Source: Prorocentrum cordatum (lineage: Eukaryota). From it: a stretch of DNA of 54,897 nucleotides. The position numbers and the translations under genes are program-made. The notes under the pieces are model-generated. The model saw only the letters and a list, made by a program, of their open reading frames with translations. It was not told where the DNA came from and did not search any database. Positions within the stretch are counted from its first letter, which is position 1. Each line of letters starts with the position of its first letter. This document shows positions 6,140 to 47,399 of this stretch, one piece after another. Location of the stretch: contig CAUYUJ010000202.1 in assembly GCA_963575745.1 (NCBI GenBank), positions 62,001 to 116,897 of the forward strand. The letters run 5' to 3'.

Positions 6140-7180
6140 TGCTAGGGCGAAGTCAAGACAAATTATTCTCCCCCGCCCGCCCGCCCGTCCAGCGGTGGCC
6201 CGCGATGTCCCGCGGTGTCCCGTGGTGTCCCGTGGTGTCCCGTGGTGTCCGCCGTTGCTAGGGCGAAGTCTAGATACATGATTCTCCCCCACCCGCCCGT
6301 CTGGCGGTAGCTCGCGGTGTCCCGCGGTGTCCCGTGTTGTTCCGTGGTGTCCCGTGGTGTCCGCCGTTGTTAGGGCGAAGTCAAGACAACTGATTCTCCC
6401 CCGTCCGTCCGTCCGTCCGTCCGTCCGGCGGTGGCCCGCGGTGTCCCGCGGTGCTCCGTGGTGTCCCGTGGTGTCCCGTGGTGTCCCGTTGCGTGAGATA
6501 GATAGTGAGATCGATAGTGAGATCGATAGTGAGATCGATAGTGATATCGGTACTGAGATCGATACTGAGATCGATGTGGTGCCCCGAGATGTCCCGTAGT
6601 GTCCCAAATAGTGAGATCGAACGTGAGATTGATAGTGAGATCGACAGGTGTCCCGTGGTGTCCCGTGGTGTCCCCGTGGTGTTCCGTTGAGTGAGATCGA
6701 TAGTGAGATCGATAGTGAGATCGATAGTGAGATCGATACTGAGACCGATGTGGTGTCTCGAGGTGTCCCGAGGTGTCCCGAGGTGTCCCGAGGTGTCTCG
6801 TTGAGTGAGATCGATCGTGAGATCGATAGTGAGATTTACAGGTGTCCCGTGGTGTCCCGTGGTGTCCCGTGGTGTTCCGTTGAGTGAGATCGATCGTGAG
6901 CTCGATAGTGAGATCGATAGTGAGATCGACGTGGTGTCCTGAGGTGTCCCGTGGTGTCCCGTGGTGTCCTATGGTGTCCCGTTGAGTGAGATCGATAGTG
7001 AGACCGATAGTGAGATCGAGAGGTGTCCCGCGGTGTCCCGTGTTGTCCTTTGGTGTCCCGAGCTGTCCCGTGGTGTCCCGTTGAGTGAGATCGATAGTGA
7101 GATCGATAGTAAGATCGACAAGTGTCCCGTGGGGTCCCGTGGTGTCCCGTTGTGTCCCGTTGAGTGAGATCGATAATGAG
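6140..7180. repeat. Compound minisatellite of GTGTCCCGTG 10-mers and GAGATCGATAGT 12-mers
   Basis: Alternating blocks of the two units. Confidence 0.9.
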
Positions 7181-17569: not shown

Positions 17570-18445
17570 TCCTCTACGGTGCTGGTCGCAGCGCGCGCGA
17601 ATTGGGCGAGCAGTACTTGCGCTCTCAAGGGGGGCAAGCCAGCCTGGCCAGCTCAAATACGGTCCCAGAGGCATCCGAGGGCCGGAACATTTCCCGAAGA
17701 GACCCTGGATGCGGGAGAACCCTGATACGGTCCAAGTGCTCTGTGAGGGGGTTCCAAGATGTCCCGATGGGCTTCCAAGGCGTCCCCAAGACACCCGAGG
17801 GGCACTGGTTTATGCGGCCTCTGAAGCTGATCCACGCGGGCCCTCCACGAAGCGAAAACTTGCTGGAATCCGTTTTTCCATAGACAGTTTTGTCTGCAAG
17901 AACCCCATCTCGCTCCTCTCTGCAAGAAACTAGCACTTGCGCGCTGCTGGGTCCAGCATCGGGCGGGCGACGTTGAGGTGTTATTGTGAGAGGTTCTAGG
18001 AGGTCTCTTGGGGCCATCTTCGGGTCCTCTTGGGGTCTTCTTGGGGTCTTTTGGGGCCATCTTGGGGCCCTCTTGGGGCTCTTTGGGGAGGTCTGAGAGG
18101 TCTCTTGGCGCCGTCTTGCGCCCCGTGGCTAAAAGACGAGGAAAGCTTTCTCCAGCGGCCTCCCGTGGCCTCCCGTGGCCGCACGTGGTCTCCTCGGTGG
18201 CCTCCCGCCGGCCGCTGCCTCCTCGGTGGCCTCCTCCCGTGGCCTCCTCGGTGGCCTCCTCCAGTGGCCTCCCGTGGCCGCCCAGCATTGCGGTCCCTCG
18301 TCCTCCTCCTCGTCCTCCTCCTCCTCCTCCTCCTCCTCCTCCTCCTCCTCCTCCTCCCTCCTCCTCCTCCTCCTCCTCCTCCTCCTCCTCCTCCTCCTCC
18401 TCCTCCTCCTCCCTACCCCGGTCCCTGCTTCCCGCAATCCCTCTA

Positions 18446-18473
18446 CTCAAGCCATATAGGCTCAAGCATTTTG
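18446..18473 (+). other. Tandem dinoflagellate spliced-leader relics at the LINE 5' end
   Basis: CTCAAG|CCATATAGGCTCAAG|CATTTTG compared with DinoSL DCCGTAG-CCATTTTGGCTCAAG. The middle unit matches 13/15. Confidence 0.8.
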
Positions 18474-18583
18474 CCTGGGCCGACTCTCGTACCTGCTCGT
18501 CGGTGCTTGAGGCATTCCGAACCAACAGCCCTCAGAGTGAGGTCGCTTTTTTCGGCAACCAAAGCGAGAGTTTCAGAAAGAAG

Positions 18584-19681
18584 ATGGCTCGTGGCTCTGT
18601 CGCCGCCGCCTTGCACAGTGATTCTCAGATCAGTGGCTGGAGCCGCTGCGCCAGCTGCGGGCGCTACGAATGGAACTCAGTCCTCTTGGCCAGTTCCTGC
18701 AAGTGCCCCAAGTGCTCGCGCAAGGTGAAGTTGTACCAGCCCAAAGGCACCAGCCAGTCCCAGAATCAGCAGGGCGGCGCCAGTGTCTCCCAGTCGCCTA
18801 GCCCCGTTAACGAGCTCGCCGCGCTGAAGAGCCTGGTGGACTCCACGGCCAACTCGCAGCTCAAGACCTTGATGCTGCAGGGCATCGCCCACATCGAGTC
18901 CAACACCTCCTCCGAGACGTGGGACCCGTCGGCAGGGGCAGCCTTAGAGGCGGCGCGCAAGGCCATGGGAGCCTGGAAGGACGCGGACCACAAGCATACT
19001 CAGAGTGTCAACAACGTCATCAAGCTCAGGACCGCCCTAGCTCACGCGGAGGAGAAGGAGCAGAAGGCAGCAGAGGTTCTGGCAGCGGCTGAAGAAGCCA
19101 AACAGCAAGCAGCAGCCTTTTTCGCCAAGATAGAGGGCATCACCAACGTGGAGCAGCAGGCCGATTCAAAGGGGAACGGCAACGAGCAGCAGCACACGCC
19201 GAACATGACCTTGACCTGGGACGAGTCGCTCTTCCAGCAGGCTGAGGACATGGAGATCGAGCAGTCCGAAAAGGATCAGCTGAAGCAGTTGCACTCAGAC
19301 CTTCTGGCGTTCCGAGAGTTGTTGGACTCCAAGAACACGGAGGTCAAGCAGAAGTTAGAGCAGGCCGCTGCCATCAACAGGAGCGTCGCAGAGCGCATGA
19401 AGAAAAAGCGTCGTGGTGCAGACGGTGAGGCCCAAGCTCCTGAGCCTCAGGGGCCCCAGCCTGCGAAGGAGGCCTCGCCCAAGACGCCCGAGCAGATCGC
19501 CAAGGAGACCGAGGAGGTCAAGTCAGCCGCCGAGGCCAAAGAGAGGCAGCATAAGGAGACCGCCGCCAAGATCTCCCGTGCCAAGTTCGAGGCCCAGGCC
19601 ATCGCCAAGGGCAAGGGAGCAGCTGGTGGTGCAGGCATGGGCGCTGGCAAGGGCCCATCGCCGCCTCAGGCCGCGGCTTGA
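18584..19681 (+). CDS. LINE ORF1 (365 aa): N-terminal CxxC...CxxC zinc finger and coiled-coil region
   Basis: ATG at 18584 (MARGSVAA...). Motif W-SRCASC-x13-CKCPKC, then A/E/K/Q-rich helical sequence. The upstream part of ORF 18008..19681 is (CCT)n noise outside the TSD. Confidence 0.85.
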   Translation: MARGSVAAALHSDSQISGWSRCASCGRYEWNSVLLASSCKCPKCSRKVKLYQPKGTSQSQNQQGGASVSQSPSPVNELAALKSLVDSTANSQLKTLMLQGIAHIESNTSSETWDPSAGAALEAARKAMGAWKDADHKHTQSVNNVIKLRTALAHAEEKEQKAAEVLAAAEEAKQQAAAFFAKIEGITNVEQQADSKGNGNEQQHTPNMTLTWDESLFQQAEDMEIEQSEKDQLKQLHSDLLAFRELLDSKNTEVKQKLEQAAAINRSVAERMKKKRRGADGEAQAPEPQGPQPAKEASPKTPEQIAKETEEVKSAAEAKERQHKETAAKISRAKFEAQAIAKGKGAAGGAGMGAGKGPSPPQAAA

Positions 19682-19693
19682 CTAGGCACCTCG

Positions 19694-22600
19694 ATGCCAG
19701 TCGCCGCCGCCGCCGAGGCAGGCAGCCCTGCCCACCAGGCCGGAGAGGCGGCGACGCTCGAGGACCAGAGGGATAGTGACCAGCACACTAGCCACTTCTT
19801 TTTCGCCAGTGTAACTGCCATGGGGGACAAGTGCTGGCGATTCGTTGAATCATGTGAGAATTCCAAGTTCGACTTCTTCGGCTTCGTAGAAACACACATT
19901 CCTGCAGGAGGATTGAAAAAATGGGATAGGAAAGCTAGACAATCGCATCTTAGGCTGATCAGCAATCGAGCTAGACCGTCTGCAAAAGTAGTTAGCAGTG
20001 CACGCCAAGCACATTCGAATGAGGGAGGAGAATGGTTGCTCGCGCGAGGCCATTTGCAGGCGCACCAGCTTCTGTCGGCCGAGAGTGGAAAAGCCTTGCA
20101 TGCTCAGGGGTGCGCGTGCTGGGATGGATTCGTCCCCACTCTCATTCATTTCAAAGGGTTCTCTCTTGCAGTGATATGCTTCTACGGTCACCCTTCAGTA
20201 GGAATGACAGGAGCCAACATCACCCGTTTCCATAGATTAGGCTCCTTGCTCACAGGTCTCCAGGTCCCCTGGGTAGTAGCAGGAGATTTCAACTTGTCGG
20301 CTCAGACGCTGGGGCGTTCGGGCTTTCTAGACTCCGTAGACGGCCAGGTAATCCAGGCTCCAGTAGATGTCACGTGTAGCTCTGGTAAGGAGGGCTCTCA
20401 CATTGACTACTTAGTGTGCAGCCTGGCAGCCAGGCCCTATATCAAACAAGTTTCACCAATTCACTCAGTGCCTTGGAAGCCCCACTTGGGGCTAGCGGTA
20501 CAGTTTCATTCGTCGGGAACCCAGCTGATAACCAGAATGTTGTCTTTGCCTGGCAAGCTCCCTCAGCAGGCTCGGCCAGTTAAGTCTGCCACTCCTGGTT
20601 CAAAAGCATCCAAGAAAAAAGCAGAGTCTAGGGCTAAGCGTGCTAATTCGAAACAGCGTAGGTGTGAAGTTTATCAGTCTATGTTTGGGGATCGCCTGGA
20701 CCCTGTTCCGTCAGATGAGCCTCCCGAGAGCTCTCCGACGGGAACATGGGCATTTCTTGGCTCCCCTGAAGGTGAATTCGATGAAGACCTGGAAGCCTGG
20801 CCAGAACAGGAAGACTGGCCCATCCAGGTCCCAGGACCCCCCTCGTCCTCGGCCTCGCCTCCCTCCCCTTCGTGCGCGTGTATCACACCCAACCCCCTAA
20901 GCCAAGACGAGCCCCAGGAAGGATGCCCGAGCTATTGGATCCCAGAAGACTTGTGGTCCAGAGTGCGATGCAGAGTTGGTTTTGTCCCGTCTTCTGTCTG
21001 CAATGTCACTGAGTACTACAGGGACTCCCTCAGTAGCCGTTTTGGCTCCAACCTGGCTCAAGAAATTTCTGGCTTGTATGCTTCCTGGATCACCACAGTG
21101 GAAGCGGCCATTTGCGAACACCACACTACTCAGGCCTCTTCGGGCCCCAGCCGCGCGCAGGGGCACCGATTCCATGTGGGAGAGGTCCATCAGGCAGCAC
21201 ATGCCAGGACACAGCCTTTCCAAGATGATGTTGCGAATTGGTGGACACGGGCATCAACGCTGCTCTCTGCCTTTGTCCGACATCGGTTGCGAAAAAATGG
21301 ACAACGTCAATGCCGAGAGTTGCAGGACTCCATGAGAGCCCTAACTGGTGATATACCTGATAATGCTGAATCTTTGTTGAGGCCTTATGAGCCTCCCTGG
21401 CAGGAGCTCTTGATAGGGCTCCGTTCGCTCCAGCCCATCTCGGACGCCAACTTGGACAAGCTCGACGGCCTCCTGCGCAAGGTAGCCAAGAGGTCGCAAA
21501 ACCAAGCTATGCGTGCGTCCATGCAGCGTTTCCGTGAGTGGGTTGACAGCCCCCAAGCCCTTGGTCAGCTCCATCAGAATCTCAAGGATGAGCCGTTGAC
21601 CAAGCAAGAGTTGGTTCTGCCAGGCCGGGTCGTTTTTAACCCAAAAGATATCATGGACGAGAAAAGATCCCATTGGGCCAACATATGGGCCCCCACTGAG
21701 CCCAAGCTCAGTGACCTCGACGCTGCATTTGATGAAGTACGTAATGCAGCTGAGGACGAGGTGCTCCCCGACCTGGACGCCGCAGCCATTCGACGTGCAA
21801 CTAAGAAAATGCGGCCCAAGTTGGGTCAGGGCGTTGATCGCCTCTCGCCCTTAGACATCGAGAGGCTGCCCGACTCAGCCCTCACAGAGTTGAGTTCGTT
21901 ATTCGAGACCATCGAAGAAGCGCTGGCGTGGCCCATCCAGACCCAGCTGGTCATAGGGCACATGATGCCCAAGCATCGTGGCAGCGGCGACCGCATCATC
22001 GGCATACTCACCATGTTCGCGAGAGTGTGGTCCATGTGTCGTGAACCAGAAGTTGCAGAATGGATGGAGAATGATAATGCCAATGCTCCCTGGGATGCAG
22101 CAATCTCAGGCAATGCAGCGTTGCGAGAAGCATTTCTCAGAGTACTTGATGAAGAGCTAGCTCAACATCTCTCAGTTGATATCGGTAATGGCCTCTTGGA
22201 CATCAAGGGGTTCTATGACGCAGTTCAGTTCGACTTGCTCATCAAAGGAGCGCTCAAAGTTGGGTTCTCCCCAACAATCTTGTACCTTGAGCTTCTCCAA
22301 TGTGCTGCTCCCAGGACGCTGCGCCAATCAGGAGCATATTCAGAACCCATAGTTCCATTTCAGAGTATAGTCCAAGGACTTAGATCAGGAACAAGATTTG
22401 CGAGAATTATGGTATTTGCAGTGCTGAAAAAGATAACAACAGCACATCCCTCGTTTTCACATCGAATTTGGATCGACGACCTCAGCCAGAGTACGAAAGG
22501 ATCTCGTGCCCACATTCGCAGAGCCCTCACTCGGGTGATCGTCGACACTTGTAAGGAGTTGAAAGAGCAGAAGCTACAAGTGGCAGTCAAATCCGCCGTC

Positions 22601-24928
22601 CTCTGCACACACATGGCCGACTCCAAGCACATCGCCAAAGCCGTCAGAAAGGCCGGCTTCACGATTGAAGCTAAAGCTCAAGTTGCCTACTTAGGCACCG
22701 ACCTGGGCGGAGGCAGACGCATGGCCAGAGCTATTTGACGGCAAAGGTTGGCAAAATCGGCATTGATGAGTGCAAAGATAGCAAGATTCACCAAAGTTTC
22801 GCGGAAGTATAACATCATGAAACGACTCGAACGTCAAGGGTCACAAGCTGCAGGAGCCTATGCCCATCAAATCCATGGGGCCTTTGGCTATGCGATCACG
22901 GCCTTCAGAAGGAGATTGGGCCATGCAAGTGCAGCAGCTTCTACTGGTAGATGTTTGACGACGCTCCTGGCCCTTCAAGGGCCCACAGGGGATCCAGGCG
23001 TCAAGATGGCAAGTGACTGCCTTCAGCTATGGTTCCGTATGTGGGCCCATGAGGCGTCGCACCTCAGAGCGGCCATCAGACTTGCATGGCCAAAGGTGGT
23101 GTCCAAGTTCCAGCAGCTGGACCCAGCCCAGAGGCCTAGACACATTCGTGGGCCCATGGGCGCGGTCATCTGCTACCTGCTGGAGACAGGATGGACGCCC
23201 GCATCCGCTGAGTCGTGGGATCGCCCTGCAGGTCCTGATGGCAACGTCATCGAGTGGAACTTTCCAGAGAGCATCTTTATTGAGCAGAAAGGAGTTGATT
23301 TATCTAGAGACCTTGTGCGTGAGTTTCAGGAAGATAGATCCAGAATGTTGTGGGAAAAAGCAAGCTCTCACTTCTGCGGTGGAGGAGCTGAACACGGGGT
23401 AGACATGTCGTCGTATATCAGCCTCATTCGCCAACTTCGTGACGTTCCGCACGGCCACAGATTGGCAGAGCTAATGACAGCAGTCGCCACAGGCGGCACC
23501 TGGCCGCGAGACAGGCGAGTACAGCAGAAGCCAGGAGTCTGCTCGCCTCTCTGCCAGCGGTGCCGCCAAGCACGTGAGACCCCGTTTCACAGAGTTTGGG
23601 CCTGCCCCGAAAACCGAGGGTCCCTGGCCTACGAAAAATCTGAAGAGTTTGTGCCCGAGGCTTACTCCCAATGGGAGTCGGCCGAGTGTTTTTGGTTGCG
23701 GGGCCTTTTACCTAGCTCTTGGGTTGAGGCCCCCCCGCCTGTCATGTCTGACGACTGGCGCTGCTCAGGAACTTTTAGCGAATTAGCCAAAGGTGTAGCT
23801 GGACAGGGTTCACAAGAACACCCCCTCCATTTTTTCGGGGACGCTAGCGGGGGCCCTGAGTCGGCCTGTCCTCGTCTCAGAAGAGTTGGAGTAGGATTGG
23901 TTTTAGCTGCCGAACCAGCCGCAAACGATGAATTTAGGACACTAGCAACTGTAGAAGGGCCTCTTTCAGGGCACCGTCAGGTTGTTGGCAGGGGAGAACT
24001 CACTGCCCTGTGGCTAGCCCTGTATGTAAGTTCTGGGTACATAGTTTTCGCGTCCGATAATTTCAATGTGGTAGACGGCTGGTATTCGAATCGATTTGAG
24101 TCGCCTTCAGGAGAAGAGGCGGACCTCTGGGCTAAAATCGGCCGCGAGGTAAAGCTCAGAGGTAAAGAGAAGGTTTTAGTTTTATTTATAAACTCACATC
24201 TGTCTGGTGCTGACGTTTTCCATCAACGTTTTCCCGAATGGATGATTGTAGGCAATGACACAGCTGACGCTATTGCAGAAATAGCCGCCACCCGTTCGCG
24301 CGTTGACGAACAAACCAGAGCTCGTATCCATCGGCACGAAAGGCGAGCCTTCTTAGTTCGCCATCGCTTGCTTCGTGCCAACTTAGATGCAATCGAAAAC
24401 GAGAGAGCTCTTGGAAATGTTGTGAAAAAGAAAGAGGCCGTCAAGGCCCCTGCACCTCCTGGTCCGTTGCAAGTTTCAGTTTTCACCAGCGGCCATCAGC
24501 TGACAGAGAACGGCCGAGGGTGCACGCGCTGTCGAGGGTCTGCCACGCAAGCTTGTGTCGTAGCGTGGAGACAATCGCCATGTTTTGAATTAATACCGCT
24601 CGGAGGAATTTATTTTTCCCTTCCCCAGGGGGCTCGTCTGCACTTGGCTGGGGGGTGGGTAGACAACAGCCATTGTCTCCGCTACCATTCAGGACTTAAC
24701 CTTTGGTTCTGTATGTGTTGCGGCCACTACGGCCAGTCCAAGAAGGGCCAATTGCACAGTATATGCAGTAAGCCTTCTGTCCCAACCCCTCACTGTCAAG
24801 AATATTTATCAAGAATCCAGGCCCATCAGTGGCCTAAGGTTCTTAGTAAGGCAGAGAAAGCTGCCCGCCTCAGGAATGCGAGTGTCGGCGAGGGACCTAC
24901 AGAGGGTTGTGCGGGGTCCCCAGGGTGA
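19694..24928 (+). CDS. LINE ORF2 (~1744 codons): APE endonuclease, reverse transcriptase, zf-RVT, RNase H, C-terminal Cys/His finger; one in-frame TGA at 22736-22738
   Basis: APE: FGFVETH, VVAGDFN, SHIDY. RT: GQGVD, MMPK, DRIIG, LLDIKGFYD, IVQG, WIDD, YLG. zf-RVT: CQRC..ETPFHRVWACP. RNase H: FGDAS, GELTAL, ASDN, NSH, GNDTAD. ORFs 19694..22738 and 22748..24928 are in the same frame. Confidence 0.93.
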
Positions 24929-25989
24929 GGAGGAGAAGGAGGAGGAGCGGCGAGCGCGGCGCCTCTCTCGCGCCCGCGCGTGCGGCCGCCCCCTTCAACA
25001 ACCTCGACACCAAGGACCGCCGCCCCCCTTCCCCTGCCCCTTTTCCCATGTCCTTGATCTTGACTCGCTTAGCGATTGCCTCACTCACTCCCGCAATCCC
25101 TCTATTCCTTCATACCTAGCCCTCTATCGCTCTATCCCTGTCCCTTCTATTCCCATCCCCATCCCCATCCCGAGCTCTATCGCTGTCCCACTATTCCTAT
25201 CCCTACGTCCCAAGCCCCGTATAGCTATCCCTACCCGCATCCCTACCCCAATCCCTATCCCTGTCCCTATCCCTATCTCGATCCCTATCCCGATCCCCCC
25301 ATCGGGGCCCCCCAGCATGGCCCCCCCATCGTGGCCCTCCAATCGTAACCGTGTAAAGCTGCGCAGGGTCTTCTGCCGCAAGCTTGGCATCGCTCGGACG
25401 TGTGCACTTTTCCTTCGGCGAGGACCATCGAGGAGCATCCTTGATCATTTGGCGAAACAACCACGCACGAAACCGAACAAAAACACATGGAATGGACGTC
25501 CGAGCGATGCCCAGCAAGGGTGTCATGGTTTGCCAGCATTCCGGGCATCCGCCACTTTCCCTCACAAGAACGTTCCGAGCTGGGATCCGCAGGCTTCGAT
25601 AGCGCCGGAGAGGCCCTCAAGCGGCTCCAGGAGGGCCCCCGGCGCTCACAAGATGGCTCAAGATTTGTGCCTGGCATCCAAGCCATCCCCGAGGCAGCTC
25701 CATGGTGGCCCAAGGCCGCCTCAGCATGATCCCAAGAGCTCTCCAGACGGTCCCCGCTCCCCCAAAATGGCCACCCAGGAGTCCCGACTGACGCCTAGGA
25801 AACCCCAAGAGAGCACACGAGAACCCCGAGAGAGCTCAAGAGGTCCTCAAGCAGGCCCCGAGCAGGACCCAAGCTGCCCTCCAGAGCGCCCCAGGATTCC
25901 GATTTGTGCAGAGTCCCTGCAGTCTGTGCAGGACCTCCGAACCACCTGGCGTCTCTAAATGTGCTCTGTCAGCACGCTCGGCTGCCAGC

Positions 25990-44200: not shown

Positions 44201-45541
44201 GCTGCTGATGATGATGATGATGATGATGAGGAGGGGAGGAGGAGGAGAGGAGGAGGAGCATGAGGAGGAGGAGAGCAGGAGGAAAAGTAGGAGGGAGGCG
44301 GAGGCGGAGGCGGAGGCGGAGGCGGAGCGGAGGAGGAGGAGGAGGAGGAGGAGGAGGAGGAGGAGGAGGAGGAGGAGGAGGAAGAGGAGGAGGAGGGGGA
44401 GGAGGAGGCGGTGGGCGGCGGAGGAGGCGGAGGCGGAGGCGGAGGAGGAGAAGGAGGAGGAGGAGGAGGAGGAGGAGGAGGAGGAGGAGGAGGAGGAGGA
44501 GATGAGGAGGAGGAGGAGGAGGAGGAGGGGGGGGGAGGAGCAGGAGGAGGAGGAGGAGGGAGGAGGAGGAGGAGGAGGAGGAGGAGGAGGAACAGGAGGG
44601 CGAGGAGGAGGAGGAGGAAGACGAGGAATTTCAATTCTAATACCAAGAACAATCATACCCCGAATAAGAAAGATACTACGACGAATCATTCTCATACTAG
44701 TAAGAACAATTTGTTTCATAGTCGTGATAAGGATAATCAATGCTACTCCTAAGAATACCCATTCTAAGAGTAATGATAATAACAATAATAATCATATTAC
44801 GACGAATGATAGTACTAATACTAAGAATAATACGAATCATGCTAATACGAATAATAAGAAGAAGGAGAAAGAGAGGAGGAGTAGGAGAAGGAGTACGCCC
44901 CAAATGGAACCCCCAAATCGATCGAGCTTTTCCGAGAGTATCCCAAGAACGCTTCTTGGGATACCTTCGGAGAGCTCTCGGGAGCCTCCAAGGGAAGCAC
45001 TTGTACGGCCTCTGTGAGCCTGTTTGAATTTCCAGTGTCGTCTTGGTGGCCTCTAGGACCCTCTGAGAGCCATCTGTGGGCCTTTGGGGAACGTCTTGGG
45101 GCGGTGAGCTCGAAAGGTCGATTCGTGTCCTCGCACTGGGGTCCGTCTTAGGGAGTGAAGGGCCATCTTTGGCCGTATTGGAAGCCTCTTGGCCCGTCTT
45201 GGAGACCTCTTGGGCCGTCTCGGCGCTCTCTTGCGGGCGTCTTGGGCCGTCGAAATTCCAGACGAACGATCAGGAACATGCCCGCGCCCATTGGCCCCAT
45301 TCTCACCACACTACCAGATGAGATTATCATACGGCCCCGGCGAATAGCAGATAAAATGATCAAGGCAACTCGCCCAGCAGAAGCTATGATGAACACAGGG
45401 CGCGGCGTGAGAAACAGCTTCTGTCCACACCATGTCGTGCCTACATGGGGTGTGCTTCCACTGACACCCCCTCCAGCGGCCACCTCCTCCATCCACACCG
45501 CCCCCTCCAACCTCCCACCCCCGCGCGGGTCAGCCCTACTC

Positions 45542-46276
45542 AGCTTCAACGCTGGGATCAGCGCGTGCGAGAAAGGCCTACAATGGCAGCGGGCATTGTT
45601 GCTGCTCAGAGAGATGTGGCAAGCGAAGCTGGATCCCACCATCATCAGCTATAACGCTGGGATCAGTGCGTGCGAGAAGGGCGAACAGTGGCAGCAGGCT
45701 TTGGCCCTGCTGAGCGAGATGAGGGAGGTAAAGTTGGAGCCCAGCATCACCAGCTACAACGCTGGGATCGGCGCCTGCGCGAAGGGCGAGCAGTGGCAGC
45801 GTTCTTTGTCGCTGCTCAGTGAGATATGGGAGGCTATGTTGGAGCCCGACGTCATCAGCAATAGCGCTGGGATCAGCGCGTGTGTGAAGGGCGAGCAGTG
45901 GCAGCTGGCTTTGACGCTGCTGAGCGAGATGCGGGAGGCGGCATTCGAGTCCAGCATCATCAGCTACAGCGCTGGGATCAGTGCTTCCGAGAAGGGCGAG
46001 CAGTGGCAGCGGGCTTTGTCGTTGCTGAGCGAGATGAGGGAGGTGAAGTTTGAGCCCGACATCATTAGCTACAGCGCTGGGATCAGCGCTTTCGAGAAGG
46101 CCAGGCAATGGCAACGGGCACTACTGCTGCTTAGAGATATGTGGGAGGCCATGTTGGAGCCCGACGTCATCAGCTGCAGCGCTGGGATCAGCGCTTGCGC
46201 GAATGGCGAGCAGTGGCAGCAGGCGCTGTCGCTGCTGACGGCGGTTCGGGGGGCGAAGATTGAGCCCAACTCCATC
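45542..46276 (+). CDS. PPR array of exactly 7 tandem 35-aa repeats
   Basis: 735 nt = 7 x 105 nt with consensus SYSAGISACEKGEQWQRALSLLSEMxEAKLEPDVI. Confidence 0.93.
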
Positions 46277-47399
46277 TTGGACTATTTGGTCCCATCTTGG
46301 AGCCATCCCGGGCCATTCTGGACCCTCCAACGACCCGCGCTGGGGAGGGGTCCACGACCAGGGAGGGGGTATGAAGGGGAGAGGCAAACCTCTCCCCGAA
46401 AGGGCACAAGGAGTCTGGAAGCACCAACTCCCCCAGACCACCTGCGCCCCGCGCGCCCTGGAAGGTGGCGTGCCTCGAGCCCCCCGCCCTCCCCGCCCCG
46501 GCACGGCCGGAACAGGCCCCAGGGCCCCGGCGAGCTCCGAGGGTACCTCCAAGACTCGCGCCGGACGACATCGGGGGTTGGGGTATGGGGGGGGTCAAGC
46601 TAGCCAGCTCGAGCGTTCAAGCATGGCATGCCCATTCCCACCCGCCCTCCCACAACATATGAAACAGTGATGGCACAACGGACAGGCTGCTGTCTTCCCC
46701 CTCGCCGTACCCCTAAACCCCCCAAATCCGTTCCGAAGGTAGCCTTCGGACTCCTCCCGGGTCCAAACGCACAACTTTTTCGAGTCGCGTCCAGCCGTGA
46801 CTTAGAGGAGGACCCCGAGGGCCAGAAAGCTTCGAACACCGATTCTCGAGGCAACGGACAGGCTGCTGTCTTCCCCCTCACCGTACCCCCAAACCCAGAT
46901 CCGGTCCGAAGGAAGCCTTCGGACCCCTCCCGGGTCCAAACGCACCATTTTTTCGAGTCGCGTCCAGCCGTGACTTAGAAGAAGACCCCGAGGGCCAGAA
47001 AGACTCGAACACCGATGCTCGAGGCGCAAAGTTCGAGCACCTCACTGAAACACTCCCCTTCGGCGCGCCGCCGACCATGACCTGTGGGCGGCGCCGGCGC
47101 CGTTCGCCGCGACGGGCCCTCCCGGTTCGGGCTTCGAGGCTCCTCGGAAGCTCTCGCGGCTCTGGCGTTTTTCCGTCGACTTCTCACGTTTTTCCTTCGA
47201 CTTCGCCCTCCAGGGAACAATTTCGAAAGTGCGCCAGTGGATCTCCCTGAATACACTAAAAGGGGGGGGTCCGGACTTAATCCCCCCCCTCCCCTCCCTC
47301 CCTTGAAGGGGGGGGGGGGGGGGGTCCGGAACCCCCCCCCCCCCTCTCTCCCCCTTGGCGCTGGAAAGGGGGGGGGGTGTTCGGACCCCCCTCCCCAGT

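What the first reader, a model, noticed from the sequence alone, without database searches (positions are those of the whole stretch)
18430..18473. LINE whose 5' end is built from stacked spliced-leader relics, suggesting a retrotransposon that cycles through SL trans-splicing
Seen: the first base after the 16-bp TSD begins CTCAAG (the last 6 nt of DinoSL), followed by CCATATAGGCTCAAG (13/15 to SL nt 8-22) and then CATTTTG. Established: dinoflagellate mRNAs receive the 22-nt SL DCCGTAGCCATTTTGGCTCAAG. Retroposed genes accumulate tandem relics cut after the SL-internal AG, and that is the register seen here. Inference: this element's RNA is trans-spliced, reverse-transcribed into the SL and re-inserted, so each copy carries its own trans-splice acceptor. 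It could then be cut out of any host read-through transcript as a capped mRNA without needing an internal promoter. This differs from SLACS/CRE/NeSL, which insert into SL RNA genes.
Basis: partly seen in the sequence, partly recalled or inferred. Interest (0 to 1): 0.9.

Follow-up and report, generated by a model that had tools for sequence, protein, structure and literature searches.

The report
Dinoflagellate LINE capped by spliced-leader relics
A young jumping gene (LINE) in a dinoflagellate genome starts with leftovers of the short leader that these algae splice onto their messenger RNAs, which indicates that its own RNA is leader-spliced, copied back into DNA and re-used over several generations.

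Summary
An exact 16-bp target-site duplication (18430-18445 and 25089-25104) brackets a 6,643-bp non-LTR retrotransposon. Its first 21 bases are CTCAAG plus CCATATAGGCTCAAG, a 19/21 match to the DinoSL suffix plus one 15-nt relict. This is the only such hit in the window, and 0 of 100 shuffles gave one. A degraded third unit (CATTTTG...) follows.

The host is a dinoflagellate: the neighbouring PPR gene is closest to Prorocentrum cordatum proteins. ORF2 (1,744 aa when read through a private CGA>TGA stop) has an APE endonuclease, RT, a CCHC knuckle and RNase H. A profile of its relatives hits LINE-1 ORF2p at 3.8e-19.

I could not see the 5' junctions of other copies of this family, and no RNA run was listed. 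However, three other LINEs in public contigs also begin with DinoSL. Two belong to the same superfamily: L037 has a 22-nt SL plus a perfect relict, and L133 has a 21-nt SL. L078, from another clade, has a 17-nt SL plus relicts.

The element's RNA therefore passes through the known dinoflagellate mRNA-recycling cycle. That it needs no promoter of its own is a reasonable inference, not a demonstrated fact. No paper I found describes this. I rate it a new variant of a known kind.

The parts
18290..18429 (+). Upstream flank: (CCT)n microsatellite running into a CT-rich minisatellite. This is the pre-insertion target region.
   Evidence: Families D1, D2 and D6 show the same CTATCCCTGTCCCT-like units at 18413-18426 and again at 25132-25268.
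18430..18445 (+). 5' copy of the 16-bp target-site duplication, TCCCGCAATCCCTCTA.
   Evidence: exact; 2 sites only; 0.06 expected, family D9.
18446..18451 (+). CTCAAG: the last 6 nt of DinoSL and the first bases of the insert. I read it as the newest leader, truncated at its 5' end on insertion.
18452..18466 (+). Relict SL unit 1, CCATATAGGCTCAAG (13/15 to SL nt 8-22).
   Evidence: the only hit with up to 2 mismatches.
18467..18479 (+). Probable older, degraded relict unit 2, CATTTTGCCTGGG: an exact 7-mer of the SL, then diverged sequence, with the first C missing.
   Evidence: read by eye. Similar decay of the inner units is seen in L078 and many other loci and is described in PMC3229502.
18446..18583 (+). 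5' UTR of the element (138 nt). It is open in the ORF1 frame from the first base.
18584..19681 (+). ORF1, 365 aa. It has an N-terminal CxxC...CxxC motif followed by a charged, helix-like region. No Pfam family matched.
19694..24928 (+). ORF2, 1,744 aa when read through one in-frame TGA. It lies in the same frame as ORF1, 12 nt after the ORF1 stop codon (TGA).
   Evidence: 3,110 relatives at E<=1e-3. Profile A1 hits LINE-1 ORF2p at 3.8e-19.
19781..20563 (+). APE-type (EEP) endonuclease domain.
   Evidence: Profile A1 positions 1-232 match the L1 endonuclease structures 2v0s (5e-7) and 8sp5 (1.6e-5). Conserved D198, D238 and H264. Pfam Exo_endo_phos is only E 0.087 for this copy alone.
21686..22696 (+). 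Reverse transcriptase domain, with the invariant DD at aa 928-929.
   Evidence: RVT_1 E 2e-4 to 5.5e-4, below Pfam's cut-off for this copy alone. (family profile against L1 ORF2p and R2)..
22736..22738 (+). In-frame TGA that breaks ORF2 in this copy. Another copy reads CGA at this codon.
   Evidence: TGA. table 3 (22736 T>C in an X1 contig).
23552..23605 (+). CCHC zinc knuckle (C1287, C1290, H1299, C1304), invariant across the family.
23840..24268 (+). RNase H domain (D1383, E1435, D1455, D1525).
   Evidence: Profile hits to RNase H structures at about 1e-9 to 5e-10.
24929..25088 (+). 3' UTR. It has no poly(A) and ends ...GCCTCACTCAC.
   Evidence: An X1 contig of the family stops at 25090 (record 8). 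Its predicted fold is not unusual (z -0.81).
25089..25104 (+). 3' copy of the 16-bp target-site duplication.

Best explanation
The element at 18446-25088 is a recently inserted APE-type non-LTR retrotransposon in a Prorocentrum-like dinoflagellate. Its 5' end is copied from its own trans-spliced mRNA.

The proposed cycle has four steps.
1. A genomic copy is transcribed.
2. The transcript receives the 22-nt DinoSL by trans-splicing.
3. Target-primed reverse transcription copies the RNA up to, or into, the leader. The new copy therefore begins with an SL or an SL suffix next to its target-site duplication.
4. When that copy is expressed, a new SL is spliced onto the AG inside the old one (SL nt 6-7). 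This leaves a 15-nt relict.

The window copy records at least two such rounds, probably three: a degraded unit, then a 13/15 unit, then the newest leader, of which 6 nt survived 5' truncation.

Shown: the TSD-defined boundary, the SL suffix and relict register, the LINE protein domains, other near-identical copies in another data set, and three other LINEs with SL-derived 5' ends.

Inferred: only 5 nt of an SL lie upstream of its internal acceptor. A precursor that was re-spliced there must therefore have started in DNA upstream of the element. Successful ancestors were thus transcribed from outside, and SL trans-splicing gave them a capped, defined 5' end. In that sense the relict works as a portable acceptor that can stand in for an internal promoter. 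I rate the SL-derived origin and the cycling at about 0.8, and promoter-independence as a working strategy at about 0.45.
For: Exact 16-bp TSD. A 19/21 match to SL suffix plus relict starts at the first inserted base; it is the only hit in the window and 0 of 100 shuffles gave one.

The host is a dinoflagellate. The best named hits of the PPR ORF at 45152-46600 are Prorocentrum cordatum proteins (up to 68-73% identity), followed by Effrenium, Durusdinium, Polarella and Symbiodinium.

LINE identity. A profile of 32 family members hits LINE-1 ORF2p at 3.8e-19, L1 endonuclease at 5e-7, R2 at 1.1e-6 and RNase H at about 5e-10. There are no LTRs.

The family exists as other copies. X1 contigs cover 18758-25090 with 30 differences in 3,868 nt and 9 in 1,491 nt. 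One contig ends at the element's 3' boundary and one reads CGA where this copy has TGA.

Independent LINEs with SL 5' ends:
- L037: TCCGTAGCaATTTTGGCTCAAG plus a perfect 15-nt relict, then ORFs matching the family profile at 2.7e-35.
- L133: a 21-nt SL directly after an (AG)n repeat, then an ORF matching the family profile at 3.4e-71, with RVT_1 at 3.7e-11 and Exo_endo_phos at 3.8e-9.
- L078: a 17-nt SL, a perfect relict and a degraded relict, then ORF1 and an ORF2 with RVT_1 at 5e-16.

The three 5' ends align only over the SL-derived block. Decay of the inner relicts matches published descriptions (PMC3229502 passages).
Against: No 5' junction of another copy of this same family was seen. The first bin had depth 1.2, no piece over the junction was listed, and the tables were cut.

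No transcript evidence exists.

L037, L078 and L133 were found by searching for the SL motif. They prove that such LINEs exist, not how common they are. None of the three includes its 3' end or a TSD.

This copy lacks the canonical internal acceptor (SL nt 6-7), and its ORF2 carries a stop, so it may itself be dead.

Relict 1 has two changes (TTTT>TATA), and the third unit is only a 7-mer plus scattered matches.

What a dinoflagellate trans-splice acceptor needs upstream is not established. The argument that transcription must start upstream rests on general knowledge of spliceosomes.
Confidence: 0.75

Rival explanations
1. Passive scar. Dinoflagellate nuclear mRNAs generally receive an SL, so a full-length LINE cDNA carries it by accident. 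Under this reading the relicts play no part in the element's life cycle. Expression would depend on something else: an internal promoter, or the TTT(G) motif of the relict acting as a core promoter, as proposed for retrogenes.
For: Song et al. propose that the relict TTT(G) motif acts as a promoter and explains retrogene survival (PMC5585692 abstract and passages; PMC6050394 passages). L133 has one SL and no relict, which fits transcription that starts at or inside the SL. Nothing here measures expression.
Against: Stacked units in the window copy, L037 and L078 require a precursor that included the old SL's AG and was re-spliced there, so its transcription started upstream of the element. The review itself says that an upstream promoter is what would produce tandem DinoSLs. 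In the window copy the relict's TTTT is changed to TATA.
Confidence: 0.17
2. Chimeric 5' end. The SL block did not come from the LINE's own mRNA. It was added by template switching of the reverse transcriptase onto another SL-bearing RNA, or by 5' transduction from a host retrogene that lay just upstream of the parent copy.
For: LINE reverse transcriptases are known to make chimeric insertions with other RNAs (recalled for L1/U6; the listing of PMC13174262 names such recombination). Retrogene 5' ends with the same stack are common.
Against: A switch onto another RNA would copy from that RNA's 3' end, not pick up only its first 6-37 nt in perfect relict register. A switch onto SL RNA would bring intron sequence (GTAC...) between the SL and the LINE. 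Four different LINEs show the same arrangement directly ahead of their own UTRs. 5' transduction would in any case still involve trans-splicing of a LINE-containing transcript.
Confidence: 0.05
3. Chance resemblance, or insertion into an SL RNA gene or SL array in the manner of SLACS, CRE or NeSL.
For: None beyond the small size of the motif.
Against: 0 of 100 shuffles gave a hit to the 21-mer. The block starts at the first base after the TSD. The flanks carry no SL 5' half and form a CT-rich satellite on both sides. No full SL occurs anywhere in the window at up to 3 mismatches. The endonuclease is APE-type. That SL-gene-specific elements use a restriction-like nuclease is recalled, not tested here.
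Confidence: 0.02

Closest known systems
Dinoflagellate mRNA recycling: retrogenes with relict DinoSL (Slamovits & Keeling 2008, as cited in the papers read; Jaeckisch 2011 PMC3229502; Song 2017 PMC5585692; PMC12014239)
   Same: The 5' architecture is the same: an SL or SL suffix, then 15-nt relicts cut after SL nt 7, with older inner units more degraded. The pattern CTCAAG followed by CCATTTTGGCTCAAG is reported as the commonest start of retrogene transcripts (PMC12014239 passage).
   Different: Here the recycled mRNA is that of the retrotransposon itself, delimited by a TSD. The papers read treat retroelements only as the presumed source of RT. Song 2017 notes that the GO term 'RNA-dependent DNA replication' is enriched among relict-bearing genes, but reads this as a sign of the driver. 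The 2018 review favours LTR elements.
SL-gene-specific non-LTR elements: SLACS, CZAR and CRE1/2 of trypanosomatids, NeSL-1 of C. elegans (recalled, not tested against sequences)
   Same: These are non-LTR retrotransposons in organisms with SL trans-splicing, and their sequences sit next to SL sequence.
   Different: Those elements insert site-specifically into SL RNA genes and carry a restriction-like endonuclease (recalled). This element carries the SL as part of its own cDNA, lies in a CT-rich satellite, and has an APE-type endonuclease.
L1-like APE-type LINEs (solved: human LINE-1 ORF2p, entries 8uw3, 8sxt, 8c8j)
   Same: Two ORFs, an APE endonuclease plus RT, a TSD of about 16 bp, 5' truncation on insertion, and best structural-sequence hits to ORF2p.
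   Different: It has no poly(A) tail in the DNA copy. It has an RNase H domain and a long Cys/His-rich C-terminus. It is very divergent: RVT_1 falls below Pfam's cut-off for this copy alone. Its clade was not determined, because no repeat library was available.
Dinoflagellate +ssRNA virus (dinoRNAV) genomes and transcripts reported with a 5' DinoSL (Levin 2017, as cited in PMC9651163 and PMC10235124)
   Same: A selfish genetic element whose RNA carries the host leader. Its endogenous copies have DinoSL nearby.
   Different: That case is a virus. Its leader is interpreted as mimicry, or as acquired on integration by host retroelements. It is not a retrotransposon regenerating its own 5' end.

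Membership tests
Non-LTR (LINE) retrotransposon, APE type | Reverse transcriptase domain of the LINE type | tested here: met
   The family profile A1 hits LINE-1 ORF2p at 3.8e-19 and R2 at 1.1e-6. The DD motif is invariant. For this copy alone, Pfam RVT_1 gives only E 2e-4 to 5.5e-4, below its cut-off.
Non-LTR (LINE) retrotransposon, APE type | N-terminal apurinic-like (EEP) endonuclease | tested here: met
   Profile positions 1-232 match the L1 endonuclease chains 2v0s (5e-7) and 8sp5 (1.6e-5). The relative L133 passes Pfam Exo_endo_phos (37.1 bits against a cut-off of 24.5). This copy alone gives E 0.087.
Non-LTR (LINE) retrotransposon, APE type | Target-site duplication and no terminal repeats | tested here: met
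   Exact 16-bp TSD. No LTR-like or inverted terminal repeats apart from low-complexity matches.
Non-LTR (LINE) retrotransposon, APE type | 3' poly(A) or simple-repeat tail | tested here: not met
   The 3' end is ...GCCTCACTCAC with no A-run. Not all LINE clades have a poly(A) tail (recalled), so this does not exclude membership.
Recycled (retroposed) dinoflagellate transcript with relict DinoSL | SL or SL suffix at the 5' boundary of the inserted DNA | tested here: met
   CTCAAG is the first 6 nt after the TSD.
Recycled (retroposed) dinoflagellate transcript with relict DinoSL | Relict units truncated after the AG at SL nt 6-7 (15-nt units starting with CC), with older units more degraded | tested here: met
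   Unit 1 matches 13/15 in register. Unit 2 is degraded and lacks one C. The definition comes from PMC3229502.
Recycled (retroposed) dinoflagellate transcript with relict DinoSL | Host uses DinoSL (is a dinoflagellate) | tested here: met
   The best named hits of the PPR gene are dinoflagellate proteins, Prorocentrum cordatum first. No SL RNA gene lies in the window itself.
Recycled (retroposed) dinoflagellate transcript with relict DinoSL | Mature transcripts carry a fresh SL joined at the relict | not testable with these tools
   No RNA holder was listed. No genome or transcriptome of the host was at hand.
SL-gene-specific non-LTR elements (SLACS/CRE/NeSL) | Insertion at a fixed site inside an SL RNA gene | tested here: not met
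   The upstream flank ends ...CCCGCAATCCCTCTA, not with the SL 5' half. The target is a CT-rich satellite on both sides. Genuine SL genes in L127, L128, L132, L138 and L139 show SL followed by GTAC.
SL-gene-specific non-LTR elements (SLACS/CRE/NeSL) | Restriction-enzyme-like endonuclease C-terminal to the RT (recalled definition) | tested here: not met
   The endonuclease is N-terminal and APE-type. C-terminal to the RT lie a CCHC knuckle and RNase H.

The most novel reading that the evidence does not exclude
A large, divergent superfamily of dinoflagellate APE-type LINEs (3,110 relatives in public protein data) has replaced the internal promoter with SL trans-splicing. Every full-length daughter copy would carry a portable acceptor in its relict SL. 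Wherever it lands inside the long one-directional transcription units of these genomes, it would be cut out as a capped, translatable mRNA. The same elements would also be the long-sought engine of dinoflagellate mRNA recycling. Their own insertions and those of retrogenes share the SL-at-junction architecture and a liking for microsatellite targets.
Probability: 0.35. Interest if true: 0.85.

Novelty: new variant of a known kind. Interest (0 to 1): 0.65.

Why it matters
How a LINE keeps a working 5' end and promoter despite 5' truncation is a central problem of its biology. A lineage that receives its cap and defined 5' end from the host's SL machinery, and re-creates the acceptor with every full-length insertion, would be a distinct solution.

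The finding also bears on an open question in dinoflagellate genomics: which reverse transcriptase drives the massive retroposition of SL-bearing mRNAs? More than 20% of genes carry relicts. The papers read leave this open or favour LTR elements. Here an APE-type LINE with a clean TSD carries the same scar as the retrogenes. That makes this LINE superfamily a concrete candidate that can be tested by comparing TSDs, target sites and junctions genome-wide.

A practical consequence follows. Counts of 'retrogenes' based on DinoSL relicts will include LINE ORFs.

Tried and rejected
- No whole genome is held for the window.
- No RNA holder was listed among the 11 runs.
- Reads were laid once. The 5' bin 18411-18635 had depth 1.2 in X1 and 0 in the other runs. 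No listed piece crosses 18446, and tables 7 and 8 were cut (16 and 24 rows not shown). The 5' junctions of other copies therefore remain unseen.
- ORF1 as a query in metagenome contigs: 340 pattern matches, none a relative.
- ORF2 in genome contigs: 11 pattern matches, none a relative.
- Alignment A1 was too divergent for the search for related loci. I did not pursue this.
- The family-specific 24-mer from 18452-18475 gave 0 hits in genome contigs. The SL+relict motif gave 0 hits in viral contigs.
- Word-index protein searches with ORF2 and with the translated 5' end 18446-18745 found nothing.
- A search for SL translated in the three frames among the 275 proteins held printed nothing.
- Earlier-findings look-ups returned nothing.
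- ORF1 shows no significant similarity to the ORF1 of L037 or L133, nor to any other SL-bearing locus.
- L009 has an ORF with DnaJ plus RNase H/RVT_3 937 nt after an SL stack. It did not match the LINE profile, so I did not count it.
- TSD hunt around retrocopies: the one candidate, L052, is part of a longer duplicated block and not a clean TSD.
- The 3' UTR fold is unremarkable (z -0.81). There are no Rfam hits in the window.
The PDB profile search answered the question instead.
- Literature searches and the passages read found no description of a LINE whose 5' end is made of DinoSL relicts. CCMP1952 appears in no held paper.
- Supplementary tables of Song 2017 and Gonzalez-Pech 2021, which list relict-bearing genes, were not opened and may name RT genes.

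Full report
**Observation.** The 16-mer occurs exactly twice in the window, at 18430-18445 and 25089-25104 (0.06 expected, 0 of 100 shuffles with two hits). The bases just outside the repeat differ. The duplication is therefore exactly 16 bp, the insert spans 18446-25088 (6,643 bp), and CTCAAG is its first six bases. With up to 2 mismatches the 15-nt relict unit is found only here. The 21-mer CTCAAG+CCATTTTGGCTCAAG with up to 3 mismatches is found only here, with 2 mismatches, and in 0 of 100 shuffles. The register is the published one. Relicts are truncated after the AG at SL nt 6-7, and inner units decay (passages of PMC3229502; PMC7245778). The third unit is a 7-mer of the SL followed by diverged sequence, and it lacks one C. 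I read it as an older relict, with less certainty.

**What the element is.** Three long ORFs lie in one frame.
- ORF1 (18584-19681, 365 aa) has a CxxC...CxxC motif and no Pfam family.
- ORF2 starts 12 nt after the ORF1 stop codon (TGA).
- ORF2 is interrupted by a TGA at 22736-22738.

Read through with X, ORF2 is 1,744 aa. On its own it is very divergent: RVT_1 at E 5.5e-4, Exo_endo_phos at 0.087, and no PDB hit. An exhaustive HMMER search found 3,110 relatives at E<=1e-3 and 111 at E<=1e-30.

I aligned 31 near-full-length relatives with ORF2 (A1). I picked these 31 from the 150 listed hits for their length. The alignment shows these conserved motifs:
- the DD of the RT
- a CCHC knuckle
- a D-E-D-D RNase H set
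- the D, D and H of an EEP nuclease

The profile of A1 hits LINE-1 ORF2p (3.8e-19), RNase H structures (about 5e-10), L1 endonuclease (5e-7) and R2 (1.1e-6). There are no LTRs, no poly(A) and no notable 3' UTR structure. The element is an APE-type non-LTR retrotransposon with an RNase H domain. Its clade was not determined.

**Host and age.** No genome is held. A PPR ORF at 45152-46600 has Prorocentrum cordatum proteins as its best named hits (up to 68-73% identity over part of the query). Other dinoflagellates follow. The window therefore comes from a dinoflagellate near Prorocentrum.

Eleven runs were listed for the 5' 1,255 nt, none on record as RNA. The best holder had 0.43 of the sampled words, and several marine and estuary metagenomes had small shares.

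Four runs were laid on 18411-25140. X1 contigs cover 18758-25090 with 30 differences plus one inserted base in 3,868 nt, and 9 differences in 1,491 nt. One contig stops at 25090, which is the element's 3' boundary. At 22736 the X1 contig reads C, giving CGA, so the stop in this copy is not shared by that copy. These contigs show that other, very similar copies exist. The tool warns that X1 may be the source sample and that depth is not copy number. Further attempts to find such copies also failed.

**Comparative test.** I scanned public contigs for the generic SL+relict motif (2 MAG contigs, 0 viral contigs, and 120 metagenome stretches with the scan stopped at its limit). I also scanned MAG contigs for the 21-nt SL (20 stretches).

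Pfam on 74 of the 96 downstream ORFs listed found one clear LINE, L078. It has a 17-nt SL, a perfect relict and a degraded relict. These are followed by a 458-aa ORF1 and a 1,049-aa ORF2 with RVT_1 at 5e-16 and Exo_endo_phos_2.

An HMM built from A1 and run over all ORFs of the loci found two members of the window element's own superfamily:
- L037 has a full 22-nt SL with one change, plus a perfect relict, then ORFs matching at 2.7e-35 and 4.6e-15.
- L133 has a 21-nt SL directly after an (AG)n repeat, then an ORF matching at 3.4e-71. It passes Pfam's own cut-offs for RVT_1 and Exo_endo_phos.

Of 20 SL matches with at least 2.5 kb downstream, 4 are SL RNA genes (SL followed by GTAC). Of the other 16, 3 are these LINEs. 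L009, with an RNase H/RVT_3 ORF, was left uncounted.

The 5' ends of the window element, L133 and L037 align only over the SL-derived block. So four LINEs, in at least two clades, begin with SL suffixes of 6, 17, 21 and 22 nt against unrelated flanks. These loci were retrieved by the SL motif. They show that such LINEs exist and recur, not what share of LINEs carry an SL. None of them includes its 3' end.

**Mechanism.** The simplest reading is that the LINE's own mRNA goes through the mRNA-recycling cycle known for dinoflagellate genes: SL trans-splicing, reverse transcription into the leader, reinsertion, then re-splicing at the old leader's internal AG.

The stack in the window copy records at least two rounds, probably three. 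The outermost leader was cut to 6 nt by 5' truncation.

One inference goes further. Only 5 nt of an SL precede its internal acceptor. A precursor re-spliced there must therefore have started upstream, in flanking DNA, so ancestors that left progeny were transcribed from outside the element. It remains an inference, for three reasons:
- the requirements of a dinoflagellate trans-splice acceptor are not established
- no RNA was seen
- Song and colleagues propose instead that the relict's TTT(G) acts as a promoter

They also note that tandem relicts are what an upstream promoter would produce. This particular copy has lost the canonical acceptor and carries a stop in ORF2, so it may be inactive.

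**Rivals.**
- Chance is excluded.
- Insertion into an SL gene, as in SLACS, CRE or NeSL, is excluded by the flanks, the TSD and the APE-type nuclease.
- A chimeric 5' end made by template switching does not explain the exact relict register or its recurrence in four LINEs.
- The serious rival is that the relicts are passive scars with no role in expression.

**Novelty.** Relict DinoSL on retrogenes is well known. Song 2017 even found the GO term 'RNA-dependent DNA replication' enriched among relict-bearing genes, but took it as a hint to the driver. The 2018 review favours LTR elements. In six full-text searches and in the passages read from 13 papers, I found no description of a LINE whose TSD-delimited 5' end consists of DinoSL relicts, and no proposal that trans-splicing replaces its promoter. 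I did not open supplementary gene lists, which may name RT genes. I class the finding as a new variant of a known kind and rate it of good but not extreme interest. It is a predictable outcome of known biology. It still gives a concrete LINE candidate for the retroposition engine and a testable promoter-free life cycle.

Noticed in passing
window 22736-22738: The only break in ORF2 is a TGA where an X1 contig of the family reads CGA. This is a nonsense change at a CpG not shared by that copy. The same X1 contig has one extra A after 21291, which would shift its own frame.
   Followed up: partly
window 19679-19696: ORF1 and ORF2 are in the same frame, separated only by a TGA and four codons. 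In L133 the endonuclease and RT lie in one 1,926-aa open frame with about 1,190 aa ahead of them. ORF2 may be made by read-through or as a fusion in this superfamily.
   Followed up: no
L003, L017, L021, L027, L029, L049, L074, L095, L097, L101, L110, L118, L122, L125, L133, L135 and others: Many retrocopy 5' junctions have the SL butting directly against a microsatellite, such as (CAT)n, (TA)n, (CCT)n, (GT)n, (ACAG)n or (AG)n. By eye this holds for roughly 20 of about 65 junctions with upstream sequence. The LINE L133 does the same, and the window LINE sits in a CT-rich satellite beside (CCT)n. This suggests a shared target preference.
   Followed up: partly
proteins P0002, P0041, P0063, P0072, P0087, P0090, P0093, P0132, P0149: Nine of the 20 closest LINE fragments looked up carry the EukProt label Pyramimonas sp. 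CCMP1952, a green alga. One is 99% identical to window ORF2 aa 654-786, and protein numbers in that set run above 450,000. Yet the window's PPR gene is closest to Prorocentrum. That data set probably holds dinoflagellate sequence, or is mislabelled.
   Followed up: partly
L129 (minus strand), around locus position 7000: A solitary 21-nt DinoSL is flanked on both sides by the same 19 nt (TTTTGCTTGCAGGCGTGAG). It looks like an SL-only insertion with a target-site duplication.
   Followed up: no
L127/L139, L128, L132, L138: These are SL RNA genes (SL followed by GTAC...), some in tandem about 870 nt apart. They sit on contigs filed as bacterial MAGs. L001, L002 and L122-L139 show dinoflagellate DNA mis-binned into prokaryote genome bins.
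   Followed up: no
window 24929-24947 and 18300-18410: The element's 3' UTR opens with GGAGGAGAAGGAGGAGGAG, which is complementary to the (CCT)n run just upstream of the insertion (21 nt at 95%). This may be chance between low-complexity sequences.
   Followed up: no
window 45152-46600 (+): An open frame encodes PPR repeats (PPR_2 at 2.6e-25), with close paralogues annotated in Prorocentrum cordatum.
   Followed up: partly
window 17980-18283: Two short tandem arrays lie just upstream of the (CCT)n run: an 11-nt unit GGGGYCNTCTT at 17980-18119, and a roughly 10-nt GTGGCCTCCC-like unit at 18145-18283.
   Followed up: no
window 21037-21062: Inside ORF2 there are two overlapping 3-mismatch matches to the relict unit (CCGTTTTGGCTCCAACCTGGCTCAAG). 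This is coding sequence and probably chance.
   Followed up: no
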